From the IMG/VR virus record IMGVR_UViG_2663763227_000012: 20,074 nucleotides of DNA; one strand, 5' to 3'. This document shows positions 189 through 20,074 of this stretch, piece by piece (within the stretch, counting starts at the first letter, position 1; every line of letters begins with the position of its first letter). A program made the translations under genes and the position numbers. A model generated the notes under the pieces. The model ran no database searches. It was not told the DNA's origin and was given only the letters and a program-made list of their open reading frames with translations. Source of the stretch: a virus. Lineage: Duplodnaviria; Heunggongvirae; Uroviricota; Caudoviricetes.

Positions 189-1484
189 TTAATTTTTCAT
201 TGCTTCGTTATGGGGCATGGTTGGGGCAAACTCGCTTAACTGTGTATTTAACAAAGCTACCTGTGCATTATTGTTTTCAGACATCCATTTTCCGTATACC
301 TGAAATACCATTTGCGCATCTGCATGGCCCATCTGGTTTGCTATAAATGCCGGGTTAGCACCAGCTGTCAGCGACCAGCAGGCATAAGTATGTCTCGACT
401 GATATGATTTTCGATGGCGGAGTCCGGCACGTTTTATCGCTGCGTCCCACATCTGCCTTATTGAGTCAACGGTAAAATGGTCACCATAATTTTTTACTCT
501 CGCTGACACTTCAGGTTGAAAAACAAAGGTGCATTTTTGTTTTTCTGTTCTGCCATACTCTCTGAGGTGAACATCAATGATATGCTCTTTGCTCAGTCTC
601 GTTAATGTCATCTGACTCCGGAGAGCGTCGATTGCTGGCTTAATAAGATGAATGACCCGATTGGTTCCCGCCTGTGTTTTTGGTACCGTGAAACGGTCTT
701 TTGCTAAATTTCTCCTGATCATCATTGTTCCATTTTTCAGATCTATGTCCTCCCATCCAAGTGCACACAGCTCACCAGGGCGAACTCCAGTATAAACAGA
801 AACACACCATAAATTTTTTGCTTGCTGATTTCTGCACGCATCGATAAGACGGATAAATTCTTCCCGCGAAAGAGGATCCGGAATGGTTCTTGATTCCTTT
901 AATGGCGAGATCCCCTTAAACGGATTATCTGCCAGGTAACCGTTATCAACACCAAACTGGAACACGGCGTTAAGATTTGTCATGTAATTATTTACAGTTA
1001 CAGCCGATCTCCCTGGTTGTGTAACAATATAGTTACTTTTGGGGATCTGGTATCCAGTCAGTAACTCTTTACGAACCTCCAGTAATTTTTCTTTATTAAT
1101 CGATGAGGCAAGATTTTTTTCACCGATTATGCTCAGGATATTTTTGATGACGGCACGGTATGTGTTGAGTGATGTTTTGGCGACTTCAGTTTCTTTCAGT
1201 GCCAGAAATTTTTCAGCCAGTTCTTTTATGGTTAAATCTTGTCGGGCCTCACCAAATTTTTCCAGATTGCGTGAGGAGGGAAACTGTTTTGCATAGTCGA
1301 AAACACCAGTTTTTATTGCGTAACAAACAGAGGAGCGTAGTTCACCTGCAACGCGCCTGTTTTTTGCTGTGTCAGGAACCCCCAGATTTTCCCTGACTCT
1401 TACGTCTTTATAAACAAACCAGATACGTAATTTCCCTCCATGGTTTTCCACGCCTGTCGGATATTTCATTTCAACTTCTCTCAT
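189..1484 (-). CDS. int: Phage tyrosine integrase (site-specific recombinase)
   Basis: 431-aa ORF with a C-terminal catalytic region containing R..H..R..H..Y-type residues (LRHRKSYQSRHTYACW). Sits at the prophage edge next to an excisionase-like gene. Confidence 0.9.
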   Translation of the reverse strand: MREVEMKYPTGVENHGGKLRIWFVYKDVRVRENLGVPDTAKNRRVAGELRSSVCYAIKTGVFDYAKQFPSSRNLEKFGEARQDLTIKELAEKFLALKETEVAKTSLNTYRAVIKNILSIIGEKNLASSINKEKLLEVRKELLTGYQIPKSNYIVTQPGRSAVTVNNYMTNLNAVFQFGVDNGYLADNPFKGISPLKESRTIPDPLSREEFIRLIDACRNQQAKNLWCVSVYTGVRPGELCALGWEDIDLKNGTMMIRRNLAKDRFTVPKTQAGTNRVIHLIKPAIDALRSQMTLTRLSKEHIIDVHLREYGRTEKQKCTFVFQPEVSARVKNYGDHFTVDSIRQMWDAAIKRAGLRHRKSYQSRHTYACWSLTAGANPAFIANQMGHADAQMVFQVYGKWMSENNNAQVALLNTQLSEFAPTMPHNEAMKN

Positions 1485-1503
1485 TAGTTAGTGTGGTTTT
1501 TAG

Positions 1504-1755
1504 TCAAGTAAGATGACGTCTTGGTCTCGCTGATGCCTGGCGCTCAATCCAGCGATCAATTTCTTCCAGGTTGTAAAAGCATGGACTGTTATCCCATGGC
1601 ATACCGTCATGAGCGACATGCTTATATTCCCTTCCTTCCATAAACGATTTTTCCCGGGCCTTTTTTAACGTACCTTTTTTTATTCCTTTCAGCGCAATTA
1701 ACTGCTCTTCGGATACCCATTTGCCGGGAGAGACAATCATGATTACTTCGCTCAT
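1504..1755 (-). CDS. xis: Excisionase-like small DNA-binding protein
   Basis: 83-aa basic ORF immediately upstream of int on the same strand, the usual lambdoid xis position. Start codon uncertain (alternative internal Met). Confidence 0.55.
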   Translation of the reverse strand: MSEVIMIVSPGKWVSEEQLIALKGIKKGTLKKAREKSFMEGREYKHVAHDGMPWDNSPCFYNLEEIDRWIERQASARPRRHLT

Positions 1756-1827
1756 CGATTTCTTTATCTCTTACATCAGACGAGCGCCGGTTGCAGAATA
1801 CCAGTCACAACCGGCGACAGTTGAACA

Positions 1828-4299
1828 TTAAGAATCAGCCTGACTCGGGATCAGTTTTTGCCAGATAACTGAAACGTATTTTGCCTGGTAACGGGCGTCA
1901 TCAAGTGCATTATGGCGCTCACCTTCGAATGGAATAGCCGTTCTGGCATCGAAGTCTATGGCTTTCCCCAGCTCAACGATTGTGCGTACATCGCGATCGT
2001 TGTAGTAACGCCACGGGCAGGGGATCCCCTGCCGTTCGTATGAACGGCGCAAAATCGTGTTGTCGAAGTTGGCTCCATTTCCCCAAACCTGAACAAAAAA
2101 TTCACCGGAGTTTTCGTCGATAAATTCTCGCAATTGTAACAGTGCATCATCTAACGGGATTTCATCGGTCATAATGGCAGATTGCGCTTCGCGTGATTGC
2201 TTAAGCCACCATTTAATGGTGTCCCGATCAATGACTCCGCCAGCAGTTTCCAGATCGATAGTCTTACTAAATTCCGGTCCCATATCTCCGGTTTGCGGAT
2301 CGAAAAATATTGCACCTATTGAGATGATCGGGGCATCAGGATTTTTTCCCATGGTTTCAAGGTCGATCATTAGATGGTCACACGTCCTGCTGGTGGATGT
2401 GATTTCGTGATGACCGTTCACCTTAATTGGGTGATCTGCCGTCTCGCCAGTTTCATTATCGCTATTGTGATGCTGATTGCCGCCAGTGTTCTCCTTGTGT
2501 GGATGTTCAGCGCCTTCCATTTCCTCCGGATCATCTTCCTGAACTTCAACCTGATACTCTTCATCGAATGTTTCTTGGTATGTTGCGTCGCCCATCACCG
2601 CGCCACAATCAGGGCAGTTGCCGCCGCCGGTCTGACCGCAGGCGGTGCAGACTTTTTCCACTTCCTGTTGCGCTACTGGTTCAGGCTGTTTCGTTTCTGG
2701 CTCGTTTTGTAACGCATTTGGACTGTTTTGTTCCGCTTTTTGGTAGTTCCGTTCCGATTCATGCTGGTTCTGGTTCACAGAATCGCGGGTCTGGAGCCCC
2801 TTAACCCATTTCGGATCATTCGGGTCACTAATCCCTTCAACAAATTCACCACGTGATGCAGCAAGCAACTTATCGGCGTCAGGCTGGCTGATATTGGCTG
2901 CCTGCATAATTTTGTTTACTTCGTCAGCGGTAACTTTTATCGGCTCTGGTTGTTCTGAATCTTCAGCGGTATCTACATTTTGCGGTAAGCCCGTGTATGT
3001 GCCATTTTTTCGGGCAAAATATTCTTCTTTTGTGATTTCAGTGGCGCCAGCAGCCAGTGCCTTATCCAGACCAGAGAGTTTGTTTGCGCGACCGTATTTT
3101 TCTCCGTCCTTATCTGCGAAGAGGAAATAGAACGGCCCCTCACGCTCTACAGATGGTTCAGCTTCCGGCGCGGTTTCATTTTTTGGGATATCAGATACCT
3201 CAGTTTCCACTGCATCAGTTTGTGTTTCTGATGACTGGAGAACATCAACAGTGCCCAGGTCTGTTTCTTCATTCTCAAACACGCCCTTTGTCGTCAGGTA
3301 TTCGCAGATATATTTGTTCAGTGCTACGGGATCTTTGTGAATGTCGATCGGACGCTCACGGACAAGGCCAAAAATAGTTTGGCGGTCGTAGCGAAGGGCA
3401 TCAGGCTGTTTGCGCATTGATGCCGAGATACGCTTCCAGTCTTCGCGGTCGTTGTCGATAACTTCTTTTTTTGCCCAGCGATGGATGCTGCCGTCAATGT
3501 TTCCGGCATCCACATCACTAGGCCAGAGAGCGTAGGCCAGTTCGTCATCCAGTGTTTTCCATGTCTGCTTGTATTCGCGATGAATGGCAGCAATGACCGG
3601 GCTGATTTTTCCTGTTGAATTTTCAGTGTACTGTTGATTGGCTCTGGCGCGGGCGAGATCAACAACAGACGTGTATTTTCCGGTTTCCTTGCGTTCACCT
3701 TCGCGACGTTTTTTCCAGATGCGCATCTCTGCCTGAATTTCGGGCCATTTGGCACCAGGCTTACATTTATGCTTAACCCACCCGATGGCATGCAGCTTAA
3801 GCTCCGGATACATGGCGTTAACTTCTGGCATTTTCATCAACGCTTCAACGATATGTCCGTCGAATGTTGCCATGTCTTCCTGCAACAATTCCTGCGCGCT
3901 AATCACCATATCAACGGTGATGTTTTCACATGTGTCGAACTTAACCATGACAGCGTTCTGTACTTCAGGGGCCAGCTTGTCAAAAGTGACGTTCATCGGA
4001 TCGGATTCAGTCTCAACCGGGACAAAAGAAGCAGACTCCTCATCCCAGCGGTTTTCCTGCATATATTCAGCATCCCATGAATCGAGGGCAGGGCGGGGTA
4101 TGCCAGGTTTATCCTCGCAGACAATAAATTTATAAGCGCAGTCCTGAGCAGCCGGATAATGTTCCAGGAATTGCCAGTGAAATTTTGCTCGAGCACGGCG
4201 TTCGTCGCCAGCTTCAATGGCTGTGGCTACAGCCACAGCGCCTTCTTCCCTTGTTGCCAGTTCGTCAGGAATAGCGGCGCAAATAAAGACTTTACTCAT
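1828..4299 (-). CDS. Large prophage protein with C-terminal DnaQ-like DEDDh 3'-5' exonuclease domain and a CxxC-x7-CxxC zinc ribbon
   Basis: ORF 1828..4335 (track starts at a TTG); I prefer the ATG at 4299 (MSKVFICAAIPDE...), which has a GAGG about 10 nt upstream. Exo I (MIDLETMG), Exo II (VWGNGANFD) and Exo III (HNALDDARY) motifs lie in the last ~185 aa (nt ~1831-2390). Zinc ribbon VCTACGQTGGGNCPDCG at nt ~2599-2655. N-terminus resembles the K-12 Qin ydfE fragment from memory. Confidence 0.75.
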   Translation of the reverse strand: MSKVFICAAIPDELATREEGAVAVATAIEAGDERRARAKFHWQFLEHYPAAQDCAYKFIVCEDKPGIPRPALDSWDAEYMQENRWDEESASFVPVETESDPMNVTFDKLAPEVQNAVMVKFDTCENITVDMVISAQELLQEDMATFDGHIVEALMKMPEVNAMYPELKLHAIGWVKHKCKPGAKWPEIQAEMRIWKKRREGERKETGKYTSVVDLARARANQQYTENSTGKISPVIAAIHREYKQTWKTLDDELAYALWPSDVDAGNIDGSIHRWAKKEVIDNDREDWKRISASMRKQPDALRYDRQTIFGLVRERPIDIHKDPVALNKYICEYLTTKGVFENEETDLGTVDVLQSSETQTDAVETEVSDIPKNETAPEAEPSVEREGPFYFLFADKDGEKYGRANKLSGLDKALAAGATEITKEEYFARKNGTYTGLPQNVDTAEDSEQPEPIKVTADEVNKIMQAANISQPDADKLLAASRGEFVEGISDPNDPKWVKGLQTRDSVNQNQHESERNYQKAEQNSPNALQNEPETKQPEPVAQQEVEKVCTACGQTGGGNCPDCGAVMGDATYQETFDEEYQVEVQEDDPEEMEGAEHPHKENTGGNQHHNSDNETGETADHPIKVNGHHEITSTSRTCDHLMIDLETMGKNPDAPIISIGAIFFDPQTGDMGPEFSKTIDLETAGGVIDRDTIKWWLKQSREAQSAIMTDEIPLDDALLQLREFIDENSGEFFVQVWGNGANFDNTILRRSYERQGIPCPWRYYNDRDVRTIVELGKAIDFDARTAIPFEGERHNALDDARYQAKYVSVIWQKLIPSQADS

Positions 4300-4937: not shown

Positions 4938-4995
4938 AAAAAGGGCGGCAGAGCAGTCACGGAGTAAAACTGATACCGCCAAACGTCACCAGAAA
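4938..4995 (-). ncRNA. dicF: DicF small regulatory RNA (ftsZ-targeting sRNA)
   Basis: Reverse complement of 4938-4995 reads TTTCTGGTGACGTTTGGCGGTATCAGTTTTACTCCGTGACTGCTCTGCCGCCCTTTTT, the DicF sequence with its terminal GC stem and U-tail. Lies between ydfC and dicB as in Qin. Confidence 0.85.
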
Positions 4996-6757: not shown

Positions 6758-7262
6758 ACAGGCTCGTGAGGCTCTGGATGCCTGGATATGTCGACCAGGA
6801 ATGACACAGGAGCAGGCGACGATATTAATCACTGAAGCATTCTGGGCTTTGAAAGAGCGCCCGAACATCGATGTTCAGCGTGTCACATATGAAGGTGGCG
6901 CGATTGATCAGCGAGCGCTTGGCGTTAATCGAGTGAAGATATTTGAACGCTGGAAGGCTATCGACACCAGGGATAAGCGTGAAAAGTTCACGGCGCTAGT
7001 GCCTGCAATTATGGAGGCTATCCGGATTAATGATTTCAGGTTGTATCGTGAAATTACTGACGGAAAAAGCATCACGTGCATGATCGCCGGGTTAAACAAA
7101 GAATATGGCGATGTGGTGGAGTCCGGACTGCTTTTTGCTGATCCTGCCGTAGTGGATCGTGAAACTGACGAACTTATAGAAAAAGCAATTGCTTTCAAAC
7201 TTGCGTATCGACAGCAATACCAACAAAAAGCTGGATGGAATTATGAGCCTTCTTTTTGCTGA
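6741..7262 (+). CDS. YdaT-like early protein (CII-position regulator family)
   Basis: 173-aa ORF overlapping the dicC 3' end. The central segment (ERWKAIDTRDKREKFTALVPAIMEAI) resembles the conserved core of Rac YdaT as recalled. Confidence 0.6.
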   Translation: MKITPEQAREALDAWICRPGMTQEQATILITEAFWALKERPNIDVQRVTYEGGAIDQRALGVNRVKIFERWKAIDTRDKREKFTALVPAIMEAIRINDFRLYREITDGKSITCMIAGLNKEYGDVVESGLLFADPAVVDRETDELIEKAIAFKLAYRQQYQQKAGWNYEPSFC

Positions 7263-8208
7263 ACGCCCACTGGTTATAAACACGCAGCTGGCAATGAAAA
7301 TTGGCTTAAACGAAGCCATTGTTTTGCAACAACTGCACTACTGGTTGAGAGATACCAACTCCGGCATGGAATGTGATGGTGTTCGCTGGATTTATAACAC
7401 AACGGAACAATGGCTGGAACAGTTCCCATTCTGGTCAGAGTCAACGTTAAAGCGCGCGTTTGCAAGTCTGAAAACGCTGGGGCTTTTGCGTTGTGAAAAG
7501 CTCAATAAATCAAAGCGCGATATGACCAATTTCTACACGATCAACTATGGGAGCGAGCTTTTAGATGGTGGCAAATTGAGCGAATCCATCGGTTCAAAAT
7601 GCGCCGCTCCATCAGGTCAAAATGACACGATGGAAGAGGTCAAAATGAAACGCTCCATTGGTTCAAAACGACCCAATGTCATCGGGTCAAAATGGCCTGA
7701 TGATCTTACAGAGAATACAACAGAGATTACTACAGAGAATAAAAACACTTTTCGTCCGGAAGCTTCGCAACCGGACCCGCAGACGACTGAACAGGATTTT
7801 TTAACCCGGAACTCCGACGCGGTTGTGTTTAGTGCGAAAAAACGCCAGTGGGGTAGCAGGGAGGATTTGGCGTGTGCGCAGTGGATCTGGGGGCGGATCG
7901 TGGGTCTCTACGAACAGGCAGCCAGTGATGATGGCGAGATCATGCGACCAAAAGAGCCTAACTGGACTGCCTGGGCCAATGACGTGCGCACAATGCGGAT
8001 GCTGGATGGCAGAAGCCACAGACAAATTTGCGAAATGTTTGGTCGGGTTCAGCGAGATCCATTCTGGGTAAAAAACATCATGAGCCCGTCAAAGCTCCGC
8101 GAAAAATGGGACGAACTGGTCATCCGCCTGGGACGTTCACCTGTACAGCGTTGTGTTAATCATATTTCTGAACCGGATACAGAAATTCCGCCTGGTTTCA
8201 GAGGATAA
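7243..8208 (+). CDS. Phage replication initiator / replisome-organizer-like protein (O-like)
   Basis: ORF 7189..8208; I prefer the ATG at 7243 (MSLLFAERPLVINTQLAMKIGLNEAIVLQQLHYWLRD...), which gives a winged-helix-like N-terminal domain. Internal iteron array and position after the cro/cII-like genes support an initiator role. Confidence 0.6.
   Translation: MSLLFAERPLVINTQLAMKIGLNEAIVLQQLHYWLRDTNSGMECDGVRWIYNTTEQWLEQFPFWSESTLKRAFASLKTLGLLRCEKLNKSKRDMTNFYTINYGSELLDGGKLSESIGSKCAAPSGQNDTMEEVKMKRSIGSKRPNVIGSKWPDDLTENTTEITTENKNTFRPEASQPDPQTTEQDFLTRNSDAVVFSAKKRQWGSREDLACAQWIWGRIVGLYEQAASDDGEIMRPKEPNWTAWANDVRTMRMLDGRSHRQICEMFGRVQRDPFWVKNIMSPSKLREKWDELVIRLGRSPVQRCVNHISEPDTEIPPGFRG
7588..7694 (+). 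repeat. Five direct iteron-like repeats (consensus ~ATCGGGTCAAAATG) at ~23-bp spacing, candidate ori
   Basis: Copies at 7588-7601, 7611-7624, 7636-7647, 7657-7670 and 7681-7694 inside the initiator gene (seen as repeated IGSK in the protein). Confidence 0.55.
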
Positions 8209-9024: not shown

Positions 9025-10137
9025 TGGAATGAAACGCAAATACCGGTAAGCCAGATTCTGGCACTGACAGACAGAAAACCTGTTATCTGTCAACGAACAG
9101 GGAAAAAACGATAAAACCCACTGGATTATTTTTATGAAAGAGGCATCCAGTGAGTAGATTCGTAAGGCTACAGATACGTATATCTGAATAATTAAATTCA
9201 GTTCTGTAAATAAAATTTAATCCTTAACCGGATGGATTTCTGCACCCTCAGAACATCAGGAGGCCGCCCGAAAGGGCGGTAGTGAAATGCGAAAGTTCAA
9301 AATTATTATTGAAACGGGAATAGCTGGTGGAGATTTTGAGGATGTATTCGAAGTGGACGATGACGCAACACCTGAGGAAATTCATGACGGAGCATAAGAA
9401 ATTTTCTTTAACTACTGCAATTACTCATACCACGAAATAAAAGACGATGAGGAAGAACAAAGTGGCTGATTTTTGTTCAGCTAAATATAACATCAGTTTT
9501 GAAGAGCGGGATGAACTATTAATGGACTATGGTGAGTTACGCGGTGGAAGTGCTGCTGATGTCGAATCCTAGCGTGATGACTATGAAGCGGGAAAAACTC
9601 CGGTCGAAGCATATTGTGATGAGTGGGGCGATGAATGAGCGAGATTAATTATCAGGAAGGGCATGAAACGGCGGGGCAAGCAAAACCAGTGGCATGGCGA
9701 TATCGCTACGTGAAAAAAGGCGTTACGGACTTTCAGGGGAAGTAGTGGTCTGGTGACTGGAAATATGTACCGAAAAAAGAGGATTGTAACGACAGGCCGA
9801 ACTATCAAATTCAGGCCTTATTCACTGCCTCACCAGTCCCAGTTACATCAGAAGAACTGGTTAAAGCTGTGCACTTTTATGAACAACTAAAACGCGAAAA
9901 TCCACCAACATCCGGCAACTAGATTAATGGATTAACTATGTCGGTTAAACGACCAGCCAACTGAAAAAGCGGAAACCTGATTACAGGTTGCCAGATAAGG
10001 CAATGAGCTACCTGGCGCGGAACGGACTGATAAGTATGGGGAATGTTTTACGATGAACCTTTAGACTAAAGAGTTTGTAACGCTATGTAAGTGATTTTTT
10101 CTGGTTTAGATATTTATATGTCCGGCCAAATTGAGGT
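9025..10137. other. AT-rich decayed accessory segment with several gene-like frames each broken by an in-frame stop
   Basis: 9288-9470 (MRKFKIIIETGIAGGDFEDVFEVDDDATPEEIHDGA-TAA-EIFFNYCNYSYHEIKDDEEEQSG), 9490-9637 (in-frame TAG at 9569-9571) and 9635-9921 (MSEINYQEGHETAGQAKPVAWRYRYVKKGVTDFQGK-TAG-WSGDWKYVPKKEDC...). No ORF over 60 aa on the plus strand. Confidence 0.4.
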
Positions 10138-10176
10138 GTGTTTAAATGTAATTGCACATTGATTGTAGGAGGAATA

Positions 10177-10356
10177 ATGAAAAACGCATTGCAGTTTTTG
10201 TTTGTTGCGTTCTGGTTGTTCGCATCATGTATGCCCATCATCTTCACAGCAAGGTATATGGAAAAAGTTGATGTTTTGATATTAATATTTGGATATATAA
10301 ATGCCCTTTTTTTAGGGGTGTTCATGGCGGTCATGTGCATTGAATACTGGCGGTAA
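10177..10356 (+). CDS. Small hydrophobic (predicted two-TM) membrane protein
   Basis: 59 aa from ATG 10177 (MKNALQFLFVAFWLFASCMPIIFTARYMEKVDVLILIFGYINALFLGVFMAVMCIEYWR) with canonical AGGAGG 5 nt upstream. Lies in an AT-rich island. Confidence 0.45.
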   Translation: MKNALQFLFVAFWLFASCMPIIFTARYMEKVDVLILIFGYINALFLGVFMAVMCIEYWR

Positions 10357-10690
10357 ATACAGCGAACTCCATTGGTTTAGTTGGATATTTACTGTGCTGG
10401 ACAAAAACGGTTTGCGGGGAAATCTTAGTTAAGTAGAATGACTGCGGGTGCTTGAGGCTATCTGCCTCGGGCATGGACACCAACGGCAGATAGAGAAAAG
10501 CCCCAGTTAACATTACGCGTCCTGCAAGACGCTTAACATTAATCTGAGGCCAATTTCATGCTAGACACATGTAGGTTAGCCTCTTACGTGCCGAAAGGCA
10601 CGGAGAAGCAGGCTATTGTTAACACCAAGCTGTAATGTCCCCTTTGAACCATTCTAAAATGTCCCCAGACAATTCTCTGGGGGATTTTTC

Positions 10691-12004
10691 ATGATCAAAG
10701 AGACTGTTACGATGAGTCATAAGGAACTCCACCGACTTCAGATTATTCAGGAACAAGCTGCGGCACGCATTGGCATTTCTATTCGGCAGGTTAAACGTCT
10801 GGTGCAACGGTATAGAAATGAAGGGCCTTCTGGTCTGGTTTCCCACCGACGTGGAAAGCGTCCTAATAATTCCTTTTCTACTGAATTCAGAGCAACAGTA
10901 ATTTCACTCCTCAAAGGCCGTTACGCTGATTTTGGACCTACGTTTGCGTGCGAAAAATTGCGCGAGATACACGGTTTATCTTTATCCGTTGAAACTCTCA
11001 GAAAGTGGATGATAGAAGAGGGGTTATGGCGTGAACGCCGTCGTAAAATTGCCCGTATATATCAACGCCGCATGCGACGACCATCTTACGGTGAACTGAT
11101 CCAGATTGATGGCTCACCTCATGACTGGTTTGAAAATCGAGGCCCCAGATGTACACTGATCGTTTTCATTGATGATGCCACCAGTGCGTTGATGGCGTTG
11201 CGTTTTGTGCCTGCTGAAACAACCCGGGCTTACATGGAAACCCTCCGGGGTTACCTTAATGATCATGGCGTACCGCTCGCTCTCTACTCTGATAGACACA
11301 GTATATTCAGGGTAAATAACCCAGAGCGGGAAGGTGAGCTGACCCAGTTCACTCGTGCGATAAAGACACTGGGCATCGAGCCAATCCATGCCAACAGCCC
11401 GCAGGCAAAAGGGCGGGTAGAGCGCGCCAATCAGACACTACAGGACAGGCTGGTCAAAGAAATGCGGCTTCAGAATATCAGTGATATTGAAACAGCAAAT
11501 GCATGGTTGCCGACCTTTATTGAAGCCTATAACAACCGGTTCGCTACGTCGCCTCGTACTACTGATAATGCTCATCTTGATGTGCACCATTCTGAAGAGG
11601 AACTGGGTTATATCTTCAGCCTACAGGCGAAGCGCGTTCTGTCTAAAAATCTCACTTTCCAGTACAAAAGCAGTGCGTTTCAGGTACGCAGTGAGGGCCG
11701 GGGATATCGACTTAGGCATTCGGTTGTTACTGTATGCGAGAACTTTGACGGTGAAATTAACGTTCTGTATGACGGGAAAGCGCTGGGCTGGGAAAAGTAT
11801 GTTGATGGCCCGGAGCCTATACCACTGGATGATGAAAAGAGTGTCCATGAACGAGTGGATAATGCCCGTATTGATTTACGCTCAAAATACTATGTTAAAC
11901 CTAAAGCTGACCATCCCTGGCTTACGCGCCGAACGCAAAGTCATCAGCAAGTTAAGCCCCCGAAGTTACCTAAAAAGAAGCCTGATCCCGATAAAAAAGA
12001 TTGA
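10691..12004 (+). CDS. DDE transposase/integrase-core (rve) protein with N-terminal HTH, IS481/ISNCY-like
   Basis: 437-aa ORF: N-terminal HTH (IGISIRQVKRLVQRY), then an rve-type catalytic core (IQIDGSPHDW...TLIVFIDDATS...GRVERANQTLQD) and a basic C-terminal tail. Element boundaries not resolved. Confidence 0.8.
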   Translation: MIKETVTMSHKELHRLQIIQEQAAARIGISIRQVKRLVQRYRNEGPSGLVSHRRGKRPNNSFSTEFRATVISLLKGRYADFGPTFACEKLREIHGLSLSVETLRKWMIEEGLWRERRRKIARIYQRRMRRPSYGELIQIDGSPHDWFENRGPRCTLIVFIDDATSALMALRFVPAETTRAYMETLRGYLNDHGVPLALYSDRHSIFRVNNPEREGELTQFTRAIKTLGIEPIHANSPQAKGRVERANQTLQDRLVKEMRLQNISDIETANAWLPTFIEAYNNRFATSPRTTDNAHLDVHHSEEELGYIFSLQAKRVLSKNLTFQYKSSAFQVRSEGRGYRLRHSVVTVCENFDGEINVLYDGKALGWEKYVDGPEPIPLDDEKSVHERVDNARIDLRSKYYVKPKADHPWLTRRTQSHQQVKPPKLPKKKPDPDKKD

Positions 12005-12399
12005 AACCAAGATCGATTCGGTTGAGTGCATATCCATTCATAGGGTAGATTCTTAAGTCGCGTTTCTGGTGTTCATTTTCGGGTGGTTTGTTACTTGTTT
12101 TACCGGGGATATGCCAGAAACGCGCTGAGTCAGTCTGGGCGGTGCGCGTAATGAGGCGTTATGGTAAATAGCCTATGCTAATGTCCGCTAAGAGCAAGAA
12201 GCGGAAGTTGGCAGTTTTGTGGACTGTCCCCACAAAAGTGACTACAGAAATAGTTGCAATTCATAATTGATCATGGGTTGTCAGTTAAACTCGTGGCGAT
12301 TTAAATAGACTAATTGGGAGTGCGTCCATTACTTATATCTTGTAATGTTAACTATCAGAAATGATACAAAGATAATATGTCTTTAAAGAAAAGGCTGAT

Positions 12400-12427
12400 G
12401 GCGAAAAGTGGCCCGATGAGGGCCACA
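12400..12427 (-). terminator. Intrinsic terminator downstream of flxA
   Basis: Hairpin GTGGCCC-gatgag-GGCCAC (12408-12426) followed on the minus strand by a T-run. Confidence 0.5.
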
Positions 12428-12440
12428 ATACGGCTGTCAC

Positions 12441-12773
12441 TTAGACGTAAATATCAATGGTGCCAGCGGTATTTGTATCGTCTTTTTTCTCTTCTTTTTT
12501 ATCAGGCTGAACTGTCGCGTCTTCATTCTTTTTCTCTGCCTGCTGCCTTAACAACTGCTCCAGTTGAGCCCAGAGGCTTTCAATTTGCTTTTGTACCAAT
12601 GCAGCCATTTCTTTTTTCTGCTGTGTCGTCATCCCCTCTTCCGATGAGATTTTCCCAAGCTTTTCAGTCAGCACCTGAATTTGTCTTGTGATTTTGGCTA
12701 TTTCTGATGTTCCTTCCGGGGCGGAGTTGTTTGAAATAACGGTTGAGGTATTTCCCTGAATTGTGACAGACAT
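12441..12773 (-). CDS. flxA: FlxA (sigma-28-dependent Qin prophage protein)
   Basis: 110-aa ORF (MSVTIQGNTSTVISNNSAPEGTSEIAKITRQIQVLTEKLGKISSEEGMTTQQKKEMAALVQKQIESLWAQLEQLL...) matching FlxA as recalled. Confidence 0.85.
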   Translation of the reverse strand: MSVTIQGNTSTVISNNSAPEGTSEIAKITRQIQVLTEKLGKISSEEGMTTQQKKEMAALVQKQIESLWAQLEQLLRQQAEKKNEDATVQPDKKEEKKDDTNTAGTIDIYV

Positions 12774-12796
12774 AGATTTCTCCTTTTAAAAAAACA

Positions 12797-12824
12797 CTAT
12801 CGGCATGCACAAAAAAATCTTTAA
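12797..12824 (-). promoter_or_regulatory. Sigma-28 (FliA) class-3 promoter for flxA
   Basis: Minus strand reads TTAAAG-N15-GCCGATA (-35 at 12819-12824, -10 at 12798-12804), close to the FliA consensus TAAA-N15-GCCGATAA, about 25 nt upstream of the flxA start. Confidence 0.6.
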
Positions 12825-12975
12825 TCGTATTTCTTGTGTCATTAATTGTTTGATGTTCAGATTGTTTTCCTCGCGGGCTGGCGCGCCTCAGAAAGTAAAG
12901 CTTGTTGACAGGGGTAAACGTTCGGCAATAATTTTCTGCCGCATGCGGGTGTTGCATAAAACGTGTTACGTTCCT

Positions 12976-13281
12976 TTATCGACAGGTCAGGTCACCGCTC
13001 ACCCGCCGACGAGAAAGCAACACTGACATGCTAAAGCAAAAAATAGATGAATAAGTTGAGTTGTGCATATGTAGCCTGACCGTCACAAAGTATATGGTGT
13101 CTGTACCAGTAAGATGATGGCCGGACTCTTTAAAAACGAGCTGACCTGCACAATACAGGATGGACTTAGCAATGGCTGCTCCTGGCACAAAGCGGACAGT
13201 GATCACCGTTCTTACGACTACTTTCTGACTTCCTTCGTGACTTGCCCTAAGCATGTTGTAGTGCGATACTTGTAATGACAT
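12976..13281 (-). CDS. ydfV: YdfV-like hypothetical protein
   Basis: 101-aa ORF between flxA and relB, same position and length as Qin ydfV. Unusual composition, so it may not be a real protein. Confidence 0.45.
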   Translation of the reverse strand: MSLQVSHYNMLRASHEGSQKVVVRTVITVRFVPGAAIAKSILYCAGQLVFKESGHHLTGTDTIYFVTVRLHMHNSTYSSIFCFSMSVLLSRRRVSGDLTCR

Positions 13282-13294
13282 TTGTAATTACAAG
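13269..13294 (+). promoter_or_regulatory. relO-like operator in the relBE promoter
   Basis: CTTGTAAT-gacat-TTGTAATTACAAG: inverted and direct TTGTAAT hexads immediately upstream of the relB start. Confidence 0.6.
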
Positions 13295-13305
13295 AGGTGT
13301 AAGAC

Positions 13306-13545
13306 ATGGGTAGCATTAACCTGCGTATTGACGATGAACTTAAAGCGCGTTCTTACGCCGCGCTTGAAAAAATGGGTGTAACTCCTTCTGAAGCGCTTCG
13401 TCTCATGCTCGAGTATATCGCTGACAATGAACGCTTGCCGTTCAAACAGACACTCCTGAGTGATGAAGATGCTGAACTTGTGGAGGTAGTGAAAGAACGG
13501 CTTCGTAATCCTAAGCCAGTACGTGTGACGCTGGATGAACTCTGA
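13306..13545 (+). CDS. relB: RelB antitoxin
   Basis: 79-aa ORF (MGSINLRIDDELKARSYAALEKMGVTPSEALRLMLEYIADNERLPFKQTLLSDEDAELVEVVKERLRNPKPVRVTLDEL), near-identical to E. coli RelB as recalled. Confidence 0.9.
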   Translation: MGSINLRIDDELKARSYAALEKMGVTPSEALRLMLEYIADNERLPFKQTLLSDEDAELVEVVKERLRNPKPVRVTLDEL

Positions 13546-13832
13546 TGGCGTATTTTCTGGATTTTGACGAGCGGGCACTAAAGGAATGGCGAAAGCTGGG
13601 CTCGACGGTACGTGAACAGTTGAAAAAGAAGCTGGTTGAAGTACTTGAGTCACCCCGGATTGAAGCAAACAAGCTCCGTGGTATGCCTGATTGTTACAAG
13701 ATTAAGCTCCGGTCTTCAGGCTATCGCCTTGTATACCAGGTTATAGACGAGAAAGTTGTCGTTTTCGTGATTTCTGTTGGGAAAAGAGAACGCTCGGAAG
13801 TATATAGCGAGGCGGTCAAACGCATTCTCTGA
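13545..13832 (+). CDS. relE: RelE toxin (ribosome-dependent mRNA interferase)
   Basis: 95-aa ORF (MAYFLDFDERALKEWRKLGSTVREQLKKKLVEVLESPRIEANKLRGMPDCYKIKLRSSGYRLVYQVIDEKVVVFVISVGKRERSEVYSEAVKRIL). Start overlaps the relB stop (ATGA). Confidence 0.9.
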   Translation: MAYFLDFDERALKEWRKLGSTVREQLKKKLVEVLESPRIEANKLRGMPDCYKIKLRSSGYRLVYQVIDEKVVVFVISVGKRERSEVYSEAVKRIL

Positions 13833-13903
13833 ACCAAAGCATGACATCTCTGTTTCGCACCGAAGGTGACACTTCTGCTTTGCGTTGACAGGAGAAGCAG
13901 GCT

Positions 13904-14059
13904 ATGAAGCAGCAAAAGGCGATGTTAATCGCCCTGATCGTCATCTGTTTAACCGTCATAGTGACGGCACTGGTAACGAGGAAAGACCTCTGCGAGGTAC
14001 GAATCCGAACCGGCCAGACGGAGGTCGCTGTCTTCACAGCTTACGAACCTGAGGAGTAA
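13904..14059 (+). CDS. hokD: Hok-family membrane toxin HokD (RelF)
   Basis: Hand-translated 51-aa ORF (MKQQKAMLIALIVICLTVIVTALVTRKDLCEVRIRTGQTEVAVFTAYEPEE), below the track cutoff. GGAGAAG RBS; third gene after relBE. Confidence 0.85.
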   Translation: MKQQKAMLIALIVICLTVIVTALVTRKDLCEVRIRTGQTEVAVFTAYEPEE

Positions 14060-14873: not shown

Positions 14874-15875
14874 GTGCGGGTATTACTTAGACCTGTTCTG
14901 GTGCCTGAGCTTGGGCTGGTGGTCCTTAAGCCGGGCCGTGAATCCATACAGATATTTCATAATCCTCGAGTGCTGGTGGAACCGGAACCAAAAAGCATGC
15001 GTAATCTGCCATCCGGAGTCGTTCCTGCCGTTCGCCAGCCGCTGGCGGAAGACAAAACATTGCTGCCGTTTTTTAGTAACGAACGGGTGATTCGTGCTGC
15101 TGGCGGCGTTGGCGCATTGTCCGACTGGCTATTACGTCATGTTACATCCTGCCAGTGGCCTAATGGCGATTACCATCACACTGAAACAGTCATTCACCGT
15201 TATGGTACCGGCGCAATGGTGTTGTGCTGGCACTGCGACAACCAACTGCGTGACCAGACATCGGAATCACTGGAGCTGCTTGCTCAACAAAATCTGACAG
15301 CATGGGTGATTGACGTCATCCGTCACGCAATAAGCGGTACGCAGGAGCGGGAATTATCTTTGGCTGAATTATCCTGGTGGGCGGTCTGCAATCAGGTGGT
15401 GGATGCACTACCTGAGGCTGTATCGCGTCGTTCGCTGGGATTACCAGCGGAAAAAATCTGCTCGGTGTACCGCGAAAGCGACATCGTACCGGGAGAGCAG
15501 ACCGCCACCAGCATATTGAAACAACGCACAAAAAATCTTGCACCGTTGCCTTACGCCCACCAGCAACAAAAATCACCACAGGAAAAGACGGTGGTAAGCA
15601 TCACCGTTGATCCAGAGTCTCCGGAATCTTTCATGAAGCTGCCTAAACGTCGCCGCTGGGTTAAGGAGAAATACACACGTTGGGTTAAGACACAGCCGTG
15701 TGCTTGCTGCGGTATGCCAGCCGACGATCCGCATCATCTGATTGGTCACGGGCAGGGCGGAATGGGAACAAAAGCACATGATCTCTTTGTGTTGCCTTTG
15801 TGCAGAAAGCATCACAACGAGCTGCATACGGATACAGTGGCATTTGAAGATAAGTATGGCTCCCAACTGGACTGA
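14874..15875 (+). CDS. ydfU: DUF968/YdfU-like protein with C-terminal HNH-like Cys/His motif
   Basis: ORF 14835..15875 in the track; I prefer the GTG at 14874 because GGAGG sits 4 nt upstream. C-terminus CACCGMPADDPHHLIGHGQGGMGTKAHDLFVLPLCRKHHNELH is HNH-nuclease-like. Confidence 0.65.
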   Translation: MRVLLRPVLVPELGLVVLKPGRESIQIFHNPRVLVEPEPKSMRNLPSGVVPAVRQPLAEDKTLLPFFSNERVIRAAGGVGALSDWLLRHVTSCQWPNGDYHHTETVIHRYGTGAMVLCWHCDNQLRDQTSESLELLAQQNLTAWVIDVIRHAISGTQERELSLAELSWWAVCNQVVDALPEAVSRRSLGLPAEKICSVYRESDIVPGEQTATSILKQRTKNLAPLPYAHQQQKSPQEKTVVSITVDPESPESFMKLPKRRRWVKEKYTRWVKTQPCACCGMPADDPHHLIGHGQGGMGTKAHDLFVLPLCRKHHNELHTDTVAFEDKYGSQLD

Positions 15876-15935
15876 TATTTCGTTTTATCGATCGCGCGCT
15901 GGCAATTGGCGTACTGGCGTAAGTGGAGAACGAGC

Positions 15936-16688
15936 ATGAACCTTGAAGCCTTACCAAAATATTACTCCCCAAAATCTCCAAAATTGAGCGATGACGCTCC
16001 AGCGACAGGCACCGGTTGTTTAACAATTACGGATGTAATGGCAGCGCAGGGGATGGTGCAGTCGAAAGCACCACTTGGGTTGGCCTTATTTCTGGCAAAA
16101 GTTGGTGTTCAGGACCCTCAGTTTGCGATTGAAGGCCTGCTAAATTACGCGATGGCACTGGATAACCCGACATTGAACAAATTGAGTGAAGAAATCCGGT
16201 TACAGATTATTCCTTACCTCGTGAGTTTTGCCTTTGCTGATTACTCCAGGTCTGCGGCAAGTAAGGCTCGCTGTGAGCATTGTTCAGGTACGGGATTTTA
16301 TAATGTATTGCGCGAAGTGGTGAAACACTACAGACGCGGGGAATCTGTAATCAAGGAAGAATGGGTGAAGGAACTATGTCAGCATTGCCATGGTAAGGGC
16401 GAAGCCAGCACAGCGTGCAGAGGGTGTAAGGGTAAAGGGATTGTTCTGGATGAAAAAAGAACCCGGTTTCATGGCGTACCGGTATATAAGATTTGTGGGC
16501 GTTGTAATGGAAACCGGTTTAGTCGTTTACCGACCACGCTGGCACGACGTCATGTCCAGAAGCTGGTACCAGACCTGACCGATTATCAGTGGTATAAGGG
16601 GTATGCGGACGTCATTGGTAAACTGGTAACAAAGTGCTGGCAGGAAGAAGCATACGCGGAAGCGCAATTGAGGAAGGTGACGAGATAA
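15936..16688 (+). CDS. quuQ: Late-gene antiterminator Q
   Basis: 250 aa from ATG 15936 (MNLEALPKYY...), GGAG 8 nt upstream. Cys-rich zinc-binding region (CEHCSGTG...CQHCHGKG...CRGCKGKG...CGRCNGN) typical of the 82/DLP12-type Q family. Confidence 0.8.
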   Translation: MNLEALPKYYSPKSPKLSDDAPATGTGCLTITDVMAAQGMVQSKAPLGLALFLAKVGVQDPQFAIEGLLNYAMALDNPTLNKLSEEIRLQIIPYLVSFAFADYSRSAASKARCEHCSGTGFYNVLREVVKHYRRGESVIKEEWVKELCQHCHGKGEASTACRGCKGKGIVLDEKRTRFHGVPVYKICGRCNGNRFSRLPTTLARRHVQKLVPDLTDYQWYKGYADVIGKLVTKCWQEEAYAEAQLRKVTR

Positions 16689-16793
16689 ATGATTTTTGCT
16701 GAAGATGGCGACATGATGTTTGCATTTTTCAAAAAATATGGATAAAATTTTTTCAACGATGGGCTTTGTATACCCGACGTTAAGAAAAAGTAG

Positions 16794-17322: not shown

Positions 17323-17622
17323 AAAAATTCCTTAATACTTATAACTTGGCGCACTATACACACGTTCCTGAAGAAAGCTATAGTTTTTTGATGGGGTTGA
17401 AGATGGCTGGATGTCTAAAATAAACATTGCTTCATATGTTCAACTATGCGTTAATGATTGCGTCGGTTTGAAGAACAGACGATATACGAAGTAGTTTACT
17501 AAAGCAGTTCTCATTTCAGGTGTTATTCACTTATTCCTTCTTTGAGTCTCTCCAATTAAGTACGAAGTCGTTTCTGTTATGCAAACCATTTATGCCGAAA
17601 GGCTCAAGTTAAGGAATGTAGA

Positions 17623-17838
17623 ATGTCAAATAAAATGACTGGTTTAGTAAAATGGTTTAACGCTGATAAAGGTTTCGGCTTTATTTCTCCTGTTGATGGT
17701 AGTAAAGATGTGTTTGTGCATTTTTCTGCGATTCAGAATGATAATTATCGAACCTTATTTGAAGGTCAAAAGGTTACCTTCTCTATAGAGAGTGGTGCTA
17801 AAGGTCCTGCAGCAGCAAATGTCATCATTACTGATTAA
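17623..17838 (+). CDS. cspB: Cold-shock protein CspB
   Basis: 71-aa ORF ([71 protein letters not shown]) with RNP1/RNP2 motifs and a ~300-nt AT-rich upstream region typical of csp genes. Confidence 0.9.
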
Positions 17839-18118
17839 AATTCATCGCTCGTCTGTATACGATAACGAAGAAGGCTGATGCCTGAGTAGAGATACGGACA
17901 GAGTAGTGAATATTGGATCTCTTTAATAAAAAGTAAGGAGGTCCAATACATGAAACAATGGCTAGCATATTTGGCAAAATCTTAATCAGGAAAAGTATGC
18001 TAACCATTGTGGTGAAGTGCAGGTTTGCTGCATGAATAGTTTTACAGCAGAAGCTAACTGCTGGCATGGCAAAACAAAGTGCGTAAGTGGATGACTCCCA
18101 CAAAAAGCACCACAATCT

Positions 18119-18591: not shown

Positions 18592-18807
18592 ATGAAATCA
18601 ATGGATAAGTTAACAACAGGTGTTGCCTATGGCACATCGGCGGGTAATGCTGGTTTCTGGGCATTGCAGTTACTCGATAAAGTAACTCCGTCACAGTGGG
18701 CTGCAATCGGTGTGCTGGGTAGCCTGGTTTTTGGCCTGCTGACGTATCTGACAAATCTTTATTTCAAGATTAAAGAAGACAGGCGTAAGGCTGCGAGAGG
18801 AGAGTAA
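18592..18807 (+). CDS. essQ: Holin (EssD/EssQ-type)
   Basis: 71 aa from ATG 18592 ([71 protein letters not shown]), GAGGA RBS, transmembrane segments and a charged C-terminus. First gene of the lysis cassette. Confidence 0.85.
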
Positions 18808-18811
18808 TCCA

Positions 18812-19119
18812 ATGACTCAAGACTATGAACTGGTTGTGAAAGGAGTCCGTAATTTTGAGAATAAAGTTACGGTAACTGTAGCCTTACAGGACAAAGAACG
18901 CTTTGACGGTGAAATTTTTGACCTGGATGTCGCCATGGACCGTGTTGAAGGAGCTGCGCTGGAGTTTTATGAGGCAGCAGCCAGAAGGAGCGTCCGGCAA
19001 GTCTTCCTGGAAGTAGCAGAAAAATTGTCAGAAAAAGTTGAGTCTTATCTGCAGCATCAGTACTCCTTTAAGATTGAAAATCCTGCCAATAAGCACGAGC
19101 GTCCTCATCATAAATATCT

Positions 19120-19123
<4 letters not shown>
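18812..19123 (+). CDS. ydfR: YdfR-like protein between holin and endolysin
   Basis: 103-aa ORF in the holin-to-lysozyme position, same length and position as Qin ydfR. Function unknown. Confidence 0.6.

Positions 19124-20074
<951 letters not shown>

What the first reader, a model, noticed from the sequence alone, without database searches (positions are those of the whole stretch)
10167..10356. Small hydrophobic protein with a canonical RBS in the AT-rich island
A 59-aa ORF with two predicted TM segments and a perfect AGGAGG at ideal spacing stands alone in an AT-rich, otherwise decayed stretch. Small membrane proteins of this kind in prophages are often type I toxins, superinfection-exclusion factors or membrane-depolarising abortive-infection effectors. 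No antisense RNA or partner gene is evident from sequence alone.
Basis: inference. Interest (0 to 1): 0.45.

Follow-up and report, generated by a model that had tools for sequence, protein, structure and literature searches.

The report
Unannotated small membrane protein beside hok/sok
The 59-codon reading frame is very probably a real gene for a tiny membrane protein of unknown role carried by an E. coli prophage. It is not itself a recognisable toxin-antitoxin gene: the true type I toxin locus (hok/sok) lies just downstream and was split by a transposon that carries relBE.

Summary
AGGAGG lies at 10167-10172, a 4-nt spacer follows, the ATG is at 10177 and the stop ends at 10356. The product is 59 aa with two hydrophobic helices. 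In shuffles, a perfect Shine-Dalgarno (SD) ahead of an ORF this long, or an ORF this hydrophobic, each occur about 0.1% of the time.

The window is a Qin-type lambdoid prophage of E. coli. RefSeq annotation skips the ORF, and no Pfam, PHROG, NCBIfam, PADLOC or PDB match exists.

An exhaustive protein search found one diverged sister family: 59 aa, 41% identical, ungapped, with the same start and stop. The pair shows coding-type divergence (codon-position identity 58/72/48%, dN/dS about 0.19) and no indels, while the flanks are full of indels. I conclude it is a real gene.

Both family members sit directly upstream of a hok locus. S17-C18 lies in a lipobox-like motif and is invariant. I found no antisense RNA, no structured leader and no similarity to any toxin, so "type I toxin" is unsupported. 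Function remains unknown.

The real type I element is the adjacent hok/sok leader (10446-10616). It was cut from its coding half, hokD at 13904, by a 3274-bp ISEsa1-relBE transposon flanked by a 15-bp target duplication. Interest is modest.

The parts
10167..10172 (+). Shine-Dalgarno AGGAGG, 4 nt before the ATG. It is polymorphic: AGGGGG in 77 of 199 copies.
10177..10356 (+). 59-aa ORF (stop included): a small hydrophobic two-helix protein. The start is supported by the sister family, whose frame is closed by a TAA six codons upstream of the aligned ATG.
10186..10251 (+). Codons 4-25, hydrophobic segment 1. It reads either as TM helix 1 or as a lipoprotein-type signal peptide. The lipobox-like L14-F15-A16-S17-C18 is at 10216-10230, and S17-C18 is invariant in both subfamilies.
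   Evidence: pattern matched by hand against the PROSITE lipobox rule recalled from memory
10273..10341 (+). Codons 33-55, hydrophobic segment 2, with G39xxxA43xxxG47 and N42. F38, G39, N42, A43 and L44 are invariant across the subfamilies.
10307..10313 (+). T7 run inside the ORF, the site of the recurrent frameshift alleles.
10412..10439 (+). Likely hok promoter: TTGCGG, 16 nt, TAGAAT, ending 6 nt before the start of the hok-mRNA match.
   Evidence: consensus match only
10446..10616 (+). 5' half of a hokW/hokD-type hok/sok locus. It holds the hok mRNA leader and the mok start ATG (10558). I infer from the R1 arrangement that sok is encoded antisense within it; this was not measured. The leader is cut after 'AT' of the hok start codon.
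10602..10616 (+). Left copy of the 15-bp target-site duplication GGAGAAGCAGGCTAT.
   Evidence: (D10)
10617..13890 (+). 3274-bp transposon-like unit. It carries the ISEsa1-type (IS1202 family) transposase ORF 10691-12004, flxA, ydfV, relB and relE. Its ends are imperfect inverted repeats (22/30).
13891..13905 (+). Right copy of the 15-bp target-site duplication.
13904..14059 (+). hokD coding sequence, the displaced 3' half of the same hok locus. The protein is identical to the Hok of the uninterrupted loci.

Best explanation
The ORF at 10177-10356 is a genuine but unannotated protein-coding gene. It encodes a 59-aa, very hydrophobic two-helix protein of the cytoplasmic membrane.

It belongs to a two-member family found only in E. 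coli and Shigella prophage DNA. In both members the gene lies immediately upstream of a hok cassette, in the nin-like region between the replication genes and the Q antiterminator of a Qin-type lambdoid prophage. It is on the same strand as the early-right operon.

Shown here:
- It behaves as coding sequence over deep divergence.
- It has a usable ribosome-binding site.
- It has two hydrophobic helices.
- It keeps fixed synteny with hok.
- It is intact in about 99% of copies.

Inferred:
- No promoter or terminator of its own was recognised, so it is probably transcribed by read-through from the early-right promoter during prophage induction.
- It then inserts N-in/C-in as a helical hairpin. 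Alternatively it is processed at the invariant lipobox-like L/I-F/V-A/I-S-C18 into a lipid-anchored 42-aa single-span peptide.
- The conserved small-residue face G39-A43-G47 plus N42 suggests self-association in the membrane.
- My best guess at its role is a phage membrane accessory protein, acting in exclusion or defence or assisting lysis. It is not a stand-alone type I toxin.

The type I toxin-antitoxin element of this island is the neighbouring hok/sok leader. Its coding half is hokD, 3.3 kb away, separated from the leader by an ISEsa1-relBE transposon.
For: Coding signature from the sister family:
- P0037/P0042 is 59 aa, 24/59 identical and ungapped, with the same start and stop.
- ORF nucleotide identity is 59.4%. 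Identity by codon position is 58/72/48%. A permutation test of the position 3 versus position 2 excess gives P = 0.006.
- pN is 0.338 and pS 0.716, so dN/dS is about 0.19.
- After 73 random substitutions the frame stays open in only 2.5% of simulations. Amino-acid identity of at least 24/59 occurs in 0.4%.
- The ORF has no indel in 180 nt. The flanks have at least 9 gaps in 140 nt upstream and at least 5 in 60 nt downstream.

Population data:
- 197 of 199 retrieved copies are intact.
- The common polymorphisms (A16V, V31I, I37M, Y40H, M53T) fall at positions that also vary between the subfamilies. Positions 43, 44 and 49 (conserved in the window/L130 pairwise alignment; 43 and 44 invariant in A3) are hit only by single-copy variants.

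Chance and structure:
- The SD and the hydrophobicity each appear in about 0.1% of shuffles.
- Two helices are predicted.

Synteny:
- 100 of 101 loci with enough sequence have a hok leader after the ORF, and 78 of them have a complete hok.
- The sister gene is followed by a hok 3'-half remnant.

Context:
- The window is a Qin-type prophage and the ORF is on the strand of the dicC-to-Q operon.
Against: - NCBI's pipeline does not call the ORF in any RefSeq genome inspected.
- Two phage annotations call the opposite-strand ORF instead.
- All 11 distinct within-population substitutions are nonsynonymous, with none synonymous. Known prophage genes at the same shallow depth give 23 synonymous to 41 nonsynonymous. 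Recent constraint is therefore not demonstrable.
- The perfect SD is replaced by AGGGGG in about 40% of copies.
- Frameshift alleles at the T7 run exist.
- The single 91%-identical copy (L126) has lost both the SD and the frame.
- The family has only two members and one host genus, so the coding test rests on a single deep comparison.
- No expression data exist. K-12 lacks the region, so the published K-12 small-protein screens cannot have seen it.
- No functional evidence of any kind exists.
Confidence: 0.7

Rival explanations
1. The ORF is a non-functional chance or relic reading frame in decaying, T-rich prophage DNA. Its hydrophobic look comes from T-rich codons and it makes no selected protein.
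For: - It is not annotated by PGAP.
- Shallow polymorphisms are 0 synonymous to 11 nonsynonymous.
- The SD is polymorphic.
- Frameshifted protein variants are in the databases.
- The L126 copy is decayed.
- It has pseudogene neighbours.
- Its taxonomic range is narrow.
Against: - The sister family keeps exactly 59 codons with no indel at 59% nucleotide identity.
- Third positions diverge most and second positions least, dN/dS is about 0.19, and amino-acid identity exceeds the neutral expectation (P about 0.004).
- 197 of 199 copies are intact.
- The SD and the hydrophobicity are each about 1 in 1000 by shuffling.
Confidence: 0.12
2. It is a type I toxin in its own right, a membrane-depolarising peptide whose antisense or overlapping RNA antitoxin has not been recognised.
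For: - Its size and hydrophobicity fit the class.
- It is in a prophage, next to another type I system.
- A weak sigma-70-like match on the minus strand occurs at the same ORF position (+65) in both subfamilies.
Against: - It has no homology to Hok or any listed toxin family.
- It has two helices rather than the usual single helix.
- It has a strong, unstructured, short leader (z = 0.18) instead of the long, folded, translation-blocked leaders of type I toxin mRNAs (established knowledge of hok, ldr and tisB).
- No Rfam RNA lies on or opposite the ORF.
- The minus-strand match lies in the conserved P-I-I codons and is no better than chance (one search reports none at its threshold).
- The only minus-strand terminator-like site (9989-9974) is not conserved in phage vB_EcoS-640R1.
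Confidence: 0.08
3. It is a functional accessory of the hok/sok cassette, for example a modulator or second membrane component acting with Hok at lysis. That would explain why the pair stays adjacent in two loci that have diverged to 59% identity.
For: - Adjacency holds in 100 of 101 loci and in the sister locus.
- The presumed hok promoter lies in the DNA segment that travels with the small ORF. Homology with Stx-phage hok loci begins only at about the hok transcription start.
- hokW-sokW was shown to assist Sp5-mediated lysis and phage release (PMC8621323).
Against: - The same hok type occurs in 110 phage records, but only 3 carry the small ORF. Other genes sit upstream there.
- The small ORF stays intact where hok has been split (this window) or half deleted (sister locus), so it does not depend on hok.
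Confidence: 0.1

Closest known systems
Hok/Gef type I toxins (HokW of Sp5, HokD/RelF of Qin; Pfam PF01848)
   Same: It is a small hydrophobic inner-membrane peptide encoded in the same part of lambdoid prophages, and is physically adjacent to one.
   Different: There is no sequence similarity. It has two helices instead of one helix plus a periplasmic Cys-containing tail. It has no mok-like overlapping frame, no Sok-like antisense RNA and no folded leader.
Small phage inner-membrane superinfection-exclusion proteins (e.g. T4 Imm, P22 SieA, lambda SieB) - comparison from my own knowledge
   Same: It is a short, phage-encoded, multi-helix inner-membrane protein without an enzymatic domain.
   Different: It matches no PHROG or PADLOC family. 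It has no own promoter or terminator of the moron type. No exclusion phenotype has been tested.
Small phage lipoproteins (Rz1 o-spanin, Cor, Llp) and the T1 gp11 unimolecular spanin (lipobox plus C-terminal TM) - comparison from my own knowledge
   Same: The N-terminus has K/R, a hydrophobic core and [LI][FV][AI]-S-C at residue 18, invariant in both subfamilies. Like a u-spanin it would combine a lipid anchor with a C-terminal TM helix.
   Different: Only about 14 residues lie between Cys18 and the second helix, far too short to span the periplasm. The gene is not in the lysis cassette, which here is at 18593 onward. Lipidation is untested.
Class II holins / pinholins (e.g. S21) - comparison from my own knowledge
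   Same: About 60-70 aa with two transmembrane helices, encoded by a lambdoid phage.
   Different: It has no charged C-terminal tail (it ends in EYWR), shows no dual start, and is not next to an endolysin.

Membership tests
Protein-coding gene (generic test) | Divergence concentrated at synonymous or third codon positions, with dN/dS below 1 | tested here: met
   Window versus sister gene (L130 7001-7180): identity by codon position 58/72/48%, P = 0.006, pN 0.338, pS 0.716, dN/dS about 0.19. This rests on one deep pair only. Shallow polymorphisms (0 synonymous, 11 nonsynonymous) are uninformative or contrary.
Protein-coding gene (generic test) | Reading frame, start and stop preserved; indels excluded relative to the flanks | tested here: met
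   59 codons in both, no gaps. The flanks carry at least 14 gap events in 200 nt. 197 of 199 copies are intact.
Hok/Gef family (type I toxin) | Sequence match to the Hok/Gef model | tested here: not met
   No Pfam, NCBIfam or PADLOC hit even at E up to 1-10.
Hok/Gef family (type I toxin) | Sok-like antisense RNA and a mok-like overlapping frame in a long folded leader | tested here: not met
   The Rfam hok/sok match is at 10446-10617, outside the ORF, and nothing lies on the ORF. The leader fold gives z = 0.18.
Type I toxin (any family) | Small hydrophobic membrane peptide | tested here: met
   59 aa, GRAVY 1.27.
Type I toxin (any family) | Cognate antisense or overlapping RNA antitoxin | tested here: inconclusive
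   No promoter-like site at the tool's threshold. A weak minus-strand match at +65 in both subfamilies coincides with conserved codons. No conserved minus-strand terminator was found.
Type I toxin (any family) | Growth arrest or killing on expression | not testable with these tools
   Needs an inducible-expression experiment.
Bacterial lipoprotein (SPase II substrate) | K/R in the first 7 residues, an uncharged hydrophobic core, and a lipobox [LIVMFWSTAG]2-[LIVMFYSTAGCQ]-[AGS]-C with Cys at residues 15-35 (PROSITE rule, recalled from memory) | tested here: met
   Window: K2, LFVAFW, L-F-A-S-C18. Sister: R2K3, LCISIW, I-V-I-S-C18. S17 and C18 are invariant. This is a pattern match by hand only. 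TM helices containing SC can match by chance.
Bacterial lipoprotein (SPase II substrate) | Lipid modification and cleavage before Cys | not testable with these tools
   Needs globomycin treatment, palmitate labelling and a C18A mutant.
Class II holin / pinholin | Two TM helices plus a charged C-terminal tail, encoded beside the endolysin | tested here: not met
   Two helices are present. But the C-terminus is EYWR, and the gene is 8 kb from the lysis genes at about 18593-20074.
Known anti-phage defence or exclusion proteins | Match to a PADLOC or PHROG family of known function | tested here: not met
   No PADLOC hit. No PHROG hit for the window protein.

The most novel reading that the evidence does not exclude
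The 59-aa protein is a lipid-anchored or hairpin membrane peptide that is a functional third player of prophage hok/sok modules. For example it could gate or potentiate Hok-driven membrane collapse at induction, or serve as a phage-exclusion factor. This would define a new small-protein family that annotation pipelines have missed in about half of sequenced E. coli, counting the two paralogues together.
Probability: 0.12. Interest if true: 0.6.

Novelty: new member of a known kind. Interest (0 to 1): 0.35.

Why it matters
The small-protein gene:
- It adds a credible, conserved small membrane protein gene that the RefSeq pipeline omits.
- Subfamily 1 is present in 1585 of 5426 complete E. coli genomes. 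Subfamily 2 is in 1045.
- It is absent from K-12, so the K-12 small-protein screens could not have found it.
- It gives a defined candidate for tests of phage exclusion or lysis.

The more informative by-product concerns hokD. The leaderless hokD (relF) of the K-12 'relBEF' operon is explained here as one half of an ordinary hokW-type hok/sok locus. An ISEsa1-type unit carrying relBE inserted between the hok SD and its ATG. The same unit sits at the same position, with its own 15-bp duplication, in a plasmid hok locus. This suggests that relBE is mobile, that hok start sites are a preferred target, and that the missing target duplication reported for ISEsa1 (PMC10132070) may reflect a mis-set right end.

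Tried and rejected
- **GTG start at 10138 (72 aa), used in many GenBank entries.** Rejected. The sister gene has an in-frame TAA six codons upstream of the aligned ATG.
- **Opposite-strand 85-aa ORF (10083-10340), annotated as 'hornerin' or hypothetical in phage records.** Rejected. Its composition is low-complexity, polymorphisms give no coding pattern in that frame (2 synonymous, 9 nonsynonymous), and the deep codon-position pattern fits the plus frame.
- **Own promoter.** I first read TGtTTAAAT (10139-10147) as a conserved extended -10. I dropped it because it lacks the essential A at position 2. Neither the tool nor my own scan found a promoter conserved in both subfamilies.
- **Antisense terminator at 9989-9974.** It is not conserved in phage vB_EcoS-640R1.
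- **Remote homology.** There was no third subfamily by exhaustive HMMER, profile word-search or IMG/VR pattern scan. There was no PDB sequence relative. A weak TIGR03647 hit for the sister protein (E = 0.031, 14.5 bits against a cutoff of 26) was treated as compositional.
- **Literature.** Neither peptide string occurs in the searchable library.
- **Canonical ISEsa1 right end.** Plasmid copies share only 10617-12209 with the window and show no clear inverted repeat there. I did not resolve whether the 1.6-kb form is an independent element or a truncated derivative.

Full report
**What is at the coordinates**

The plus strand reads gtAGGAGGaataATGAAAAAC. AGGAGG is at 10167-10172, a 4-nt spacer follows, the ATG is at 10177 and the TAA ends at 10356. 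The product is 59 aa.

Kyte-Doolittle 19-residue windows peak at 2.14 (residues 7-25) and 2.39 (residues 33-52), and GRAVY is 1.27. AlphaFold2 on the family alignment gives two helices, 2-26 and 28-58, with mean pLDDT 74.

I made 3000 dinucleotide-preserving shuffles of the 1416-nt gene-poor stretch 9025-10440:
- ORFs of this length are common (78% of shuffles).
- One preceded by a perfect SD occurred 4 times.
- One this hydrophobic occurred 3 times.

Three details needed correcting:
- The spacer is short rather than ideal.
- AGGAGG is AGGGGG in 77 of 199 retrieved copies.
- The ORF is not isolated (see "The neighbour" below).

**Where the window comes from**

Rfam finds DicF (4943-4994, minus strand), a cspA-type thermoregulator (17462-17854) and a hok/sok element. 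The region is 100% identical to many E. coli chromosomes. There the neighbours are annotated dicB, dicA, dicC, a YdaT-family gene, a replication-like gene, DUF977, a methyltransferase, two pseudogenes, an ISNCY transposase, ydfW, flxA, ydfV, relBE, hokD, rem, ydfU and ydfT. This is a fuller version of the Qin cryptic prophage.

K-12 MG1655 has a deletion joining ydfX to ydfW, so it lacks the ORF. NCBI's pipeline annotates nothing at the ORF in any RefSeq genome I inspected. Two phage records call the opposite strand there.

**Is it a gene?**

The first evidence looked negative:
- All word-based homologues were from E. coli or Shigella and at least 74% identical. Many were truncated by frameshifts at the T7 run 10307-10313.
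- I fetched 124 ungapped copies from IMG/VR and from genomes. They carry 11 distinct substitutions in the ORF, all nonsynonymous.
- One 91%-identical copy (L126) has lost both the SD and the frame.

Shallow polymorphism has little power here, however. Known prophage genes at the same depth give 23 synonymous, 41 nonsynonymous and 2 stop changes. Over deeper divergence the DUF977 gene gives 69 synonymous to 29 nonsynonymous.

The decisive result came from the exhaustive HMMER search of 1.84 billion representatives. It found a second subfamily, P0037/P0042:
- It is exactly 59 aa, 24/59 identical and ungapped, with the same start and stop.
- The invariant residues are M1 L5 L8 W13 S17 C18 P20 I21 I22 T24 L36 F38 G39 N42 A43 L44 E56 W58 R59.

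At the DNA level:
- The two ORFs are 59.4% identical, with identity of 58/72/48% at codon positions 1/2/3. The position 3 versus position 2 excess has P = 0.006.
- pN is 0.338 and pS is 0.716, so dN/dS is about 0.19.
- With the same number of random substitutions the frame stays open in 2.5% of simulations. Amino-acid identity reaches 24/59 in 0.4%.
- The ORF has no indel, while the homologous flanks have at least 9 gaps in 140 nt upstream and at least 5 in 60 nt downstream.

The sister gene's frame is closed six codons upstream of the aligned ATG. This fixes the 59-aa start and rejects the 72-aa GTG start.

The common polymorphisms in the window's subfamily fall at positions that also vary between the subfamilies, and two of them (I37M, Y40H) reproduce the sister residues. 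Positions 43, 44 and 49 (conserved in the window/L130 pairwise alignment; 43 and 44 invariant in A3) are hit only by single-copy variants. 197 of 199 copies are intact.

I conclude it is a real gene, with the caveat that the coding test rests on one deep pair.

**Distribution and context**

- Subfamily 1 is in 1585 of 5426 complete E. coli genomes, all at 95% identity or more. It is in only 3 of 50,697 phage records.
- Subfamily 2 is in 1045 of 5426 genomes. It lies between ttcA plus an integrase fragment and sit-operon fragments, uspF and ompN. That is a heavily deleted prophage or island remnant at the Rac attachment region.
- No third subfamily appeared with a profile search or an IMG/VR pattern scan.
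- There is no Pfam, PHROG, NCBIfam, PADLOC or PDB-sequence match. Database names are all 'hypothetical' or 'uncharacterized membrane protein'.

**The neighbour**

Ninety nucleotides after the stop, Rfam RF01794 matches 10446-10617 at 104 bits. By its consensus (GGGUGCUUGAGG...AUG) this is the sense strand of the hok mRNA leader. I infer from the R1 hok/sok arrangement that sok is encoded antisense within it; that was not measured.

In phage vB_EcoS-640R1 the same small ORF is followed by an intact mok/hok. Its Hok protein is MKQQKAMLIALIVICLTVIVTALVTRKDLCEVRIRTGQTEVAVFTAYEPEE.

Among 101 retrieved loci with enough downstream sequence:
- 78 have the complete hok.
- 22 have the window's interrupted form.
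- 1 has neither.

The sister ORF is followed by a remnant of the 3' half of a hok coding sequence. The small ORF-hok adjacency is therefore old.

It is not obligatory, however. This hok type is about 93% identical to the experimentally characterised hokW-sokW locus of Sp5 (PMC8621323). It occurs in 110 phage records, nearly all without the small ORF and with other upstream genes.

**Why the type I toxin reading fails for the ORF itself**

- It has no similarity to any toxin family.
- It has two helices.
- Its leader is short and unstructured (z = 0.18), with a strong SD.
- No Rfam RNA lies on either strand of the ORF.
- No promoter-like site reaches the tool's threshold on either strand.
- My looser scan found only a weak minus-strand match that coincides with the conserved P-I-I codons.
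- The one minus-strand terminator-like site upstream is not conserved.

**How it probably works**

Shown: the coding signature, a usable start, two hydrophobic helices, its position on the strand of the early-right operon, and no recognisable promoter or terminator of its own.

Inferred:
- It is expressed by read-through during induction.
- It adopts an N-in/C-in topology.
- One structural alternative is a plain helical hairpin.
- The other rests on both subfamilies fitting the lipoprotein rule: K/R near the N-terminus, an uncharged core, and [LI][FV][AI]-S-C18 with S17-C18 invariant. On that reading it is cleaved and lipid-anchored, leaving a 42-aa single-span peptide.
- The G39xxxA43xxxG47 face with N42 suggests self-association.

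The role is unknown. I rank a phage membrane accessory (exclusion, defence or lysis-assisting) ahead of a Hok partner, a stand-alone toxin, or no function.

**By-product: the split hok locus**

The hok leader ends at ...GGAGAAGCAGGCTAT (10602-10616), immediately followed by TGTTAACACC.... The same 15 nt recur at 13891-13905, running into the ATG of hokD.

The 3274 bp in between (10617-13890) begin with the left end of an ISEsa1-type (IS1202-family) element. They carry its transposase ORF (10691-12004), flxA, ydfV, relB and relE. They end in an imperfect inverted repeat of the left end, 22/30.

The uninterrupted loci are the empty site. They have one copy of the 15-mer, and their Hok is identical to HokD.

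Enterobacter asburiae plasmid pEnt261 carries the same unit (3307 bp, 98.7% identical). There it sits in a different, R1-type hok locus at the same position, flanked by that locus's own 15-mer GGAGAAGAAGGCCAT.

So relBE with flxA and ydfV rides on a transposable unit that has twice hit the hok start site. The K-12 'relBE-hokD' arrangement is the result.

Harmer and Hall list ISEsa1 as 1609 bp with no detectable target duplication (PMC10132070). The 3.3-kb unit may be the form that actually transposes. I did not resolve this.

**Verdict**

- The feature is real and the gene is probably real.
- The family is uncharacterised and missed by standard annotation.
- The toxin interpretation is unsupported.
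- Interest is modest for the ORF. The neighbouring transposon-split hok locus is the more instructive result.

Noticed in passing
window 10602-10616, 10617-13890, 13891-13905, 13904-14059: A perfect 15-bp direct repeat GGAGAAGCAGGCTAT flanks a 3274-bp unit with 22/30 terminal inverted repeats. The unit carries an ISEsa1-type transposase, flxA, ydfV and relBE. It splits a hokW-type hok/sok locus between the hok SD and the ATG, which leaves hokD leaderless behind relE. Uninterrupted loci (L005 and 78 IMG/VR loci) are the empty site.
   Followed up: yes
L225 (NZ_AP024282.1, Enterobacter asburiae pEnt261), reverse-complement coordinates 916-4222: The same 3.3-kb unit (98.7% identical) is inserted at the same position of a different, R1-type plasmid hok locus, with its own 15-bp duplication GGAGAAGAAGGCCAT. 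This argues for a mobile relBE-carrying element that targets hok start sites. ISEsa1 is reported in PMC10132070 as having no detectable target duplication.
   Followed up: partly
window 11855-12004 (and K-12 b1567): The annotated 'protein YdfW' is the last 49 codons of the transposase reading frame (same frame and same stop as ORF 10691-12004). In this window the frame is continuous at 437 aa. It has a 27-nt in-frame deletion relative to the 446-aa plasmid copies.
   Followed up: partly
L130 7001-7180 and about 7225-7300 (E. coli CP042246.1): The sister small ORF sits in a deleted prophage or island remnant between ttcA with an integrase fragment and sit fragments with uspF. It is followed by a remnant of the 3' half of a hok coding sequence. 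It is present in 1045 of 5426 complete genomes and is unannotated in RefSeq.
   Followed up: yes
window 10446-10617: The Rfam family named 'sok antitoxin' (RF01794) matches the sense strand of the hok mRNA leader (the consensus runs from the 5' GGGUGCUUGAGG to the hok AUG). Sok itself would therefore be on the minus strand. The presumed sok -35 reads GTGCCT here against TTGCCT in the intact phage locus (my reading).
   Followed up: no
window about 9287-9469 and 9635-10056: Two nin-region genes are pseudogenes here (internal stop; frameshift) but intact in phage vB_EcoS-640R1 (L005 4538-4720, 4713-4889, 4886-5143). Two of the intact ones match PHROGs of unknown function.
   Followed up: partly
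window 10307-10313: A T7 homopolymer inside the ORF is the site of recurrent +1/-1 frameshift alleles in database proteins. Many of these come from read-assembled data, so some may be sequencing errors.
   Followed up: partly
window 14874-15923 and 15937-16689: Using coordinates transferred from strain cq9, ydfU and ydfT do not translate as intact ORFs in this window. This is either an indel offset or pseudogenisation.
   Followed up: no
window 4943-4994 (-) and 17462-17854 (+): A DicF sRNA (76.7 bits) and a cspA-type thermoregulator leader ahead of cspB (158.8 bits) are present, as expected for Qin.
   Followed up: no
L221, L223, L224 (Enterobacter, Klebsiella and Citrobacter plasmids): Hundreds of plasmids carry 99.9%-identical copies of the first 1.6 kb of the element (window 10617-12209). 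They have non-hok left flanks and different right sides (ncrY nickel-resistance genes, ISEsa2). No target duplication was obvious in those inspected.
   Followed up: partly
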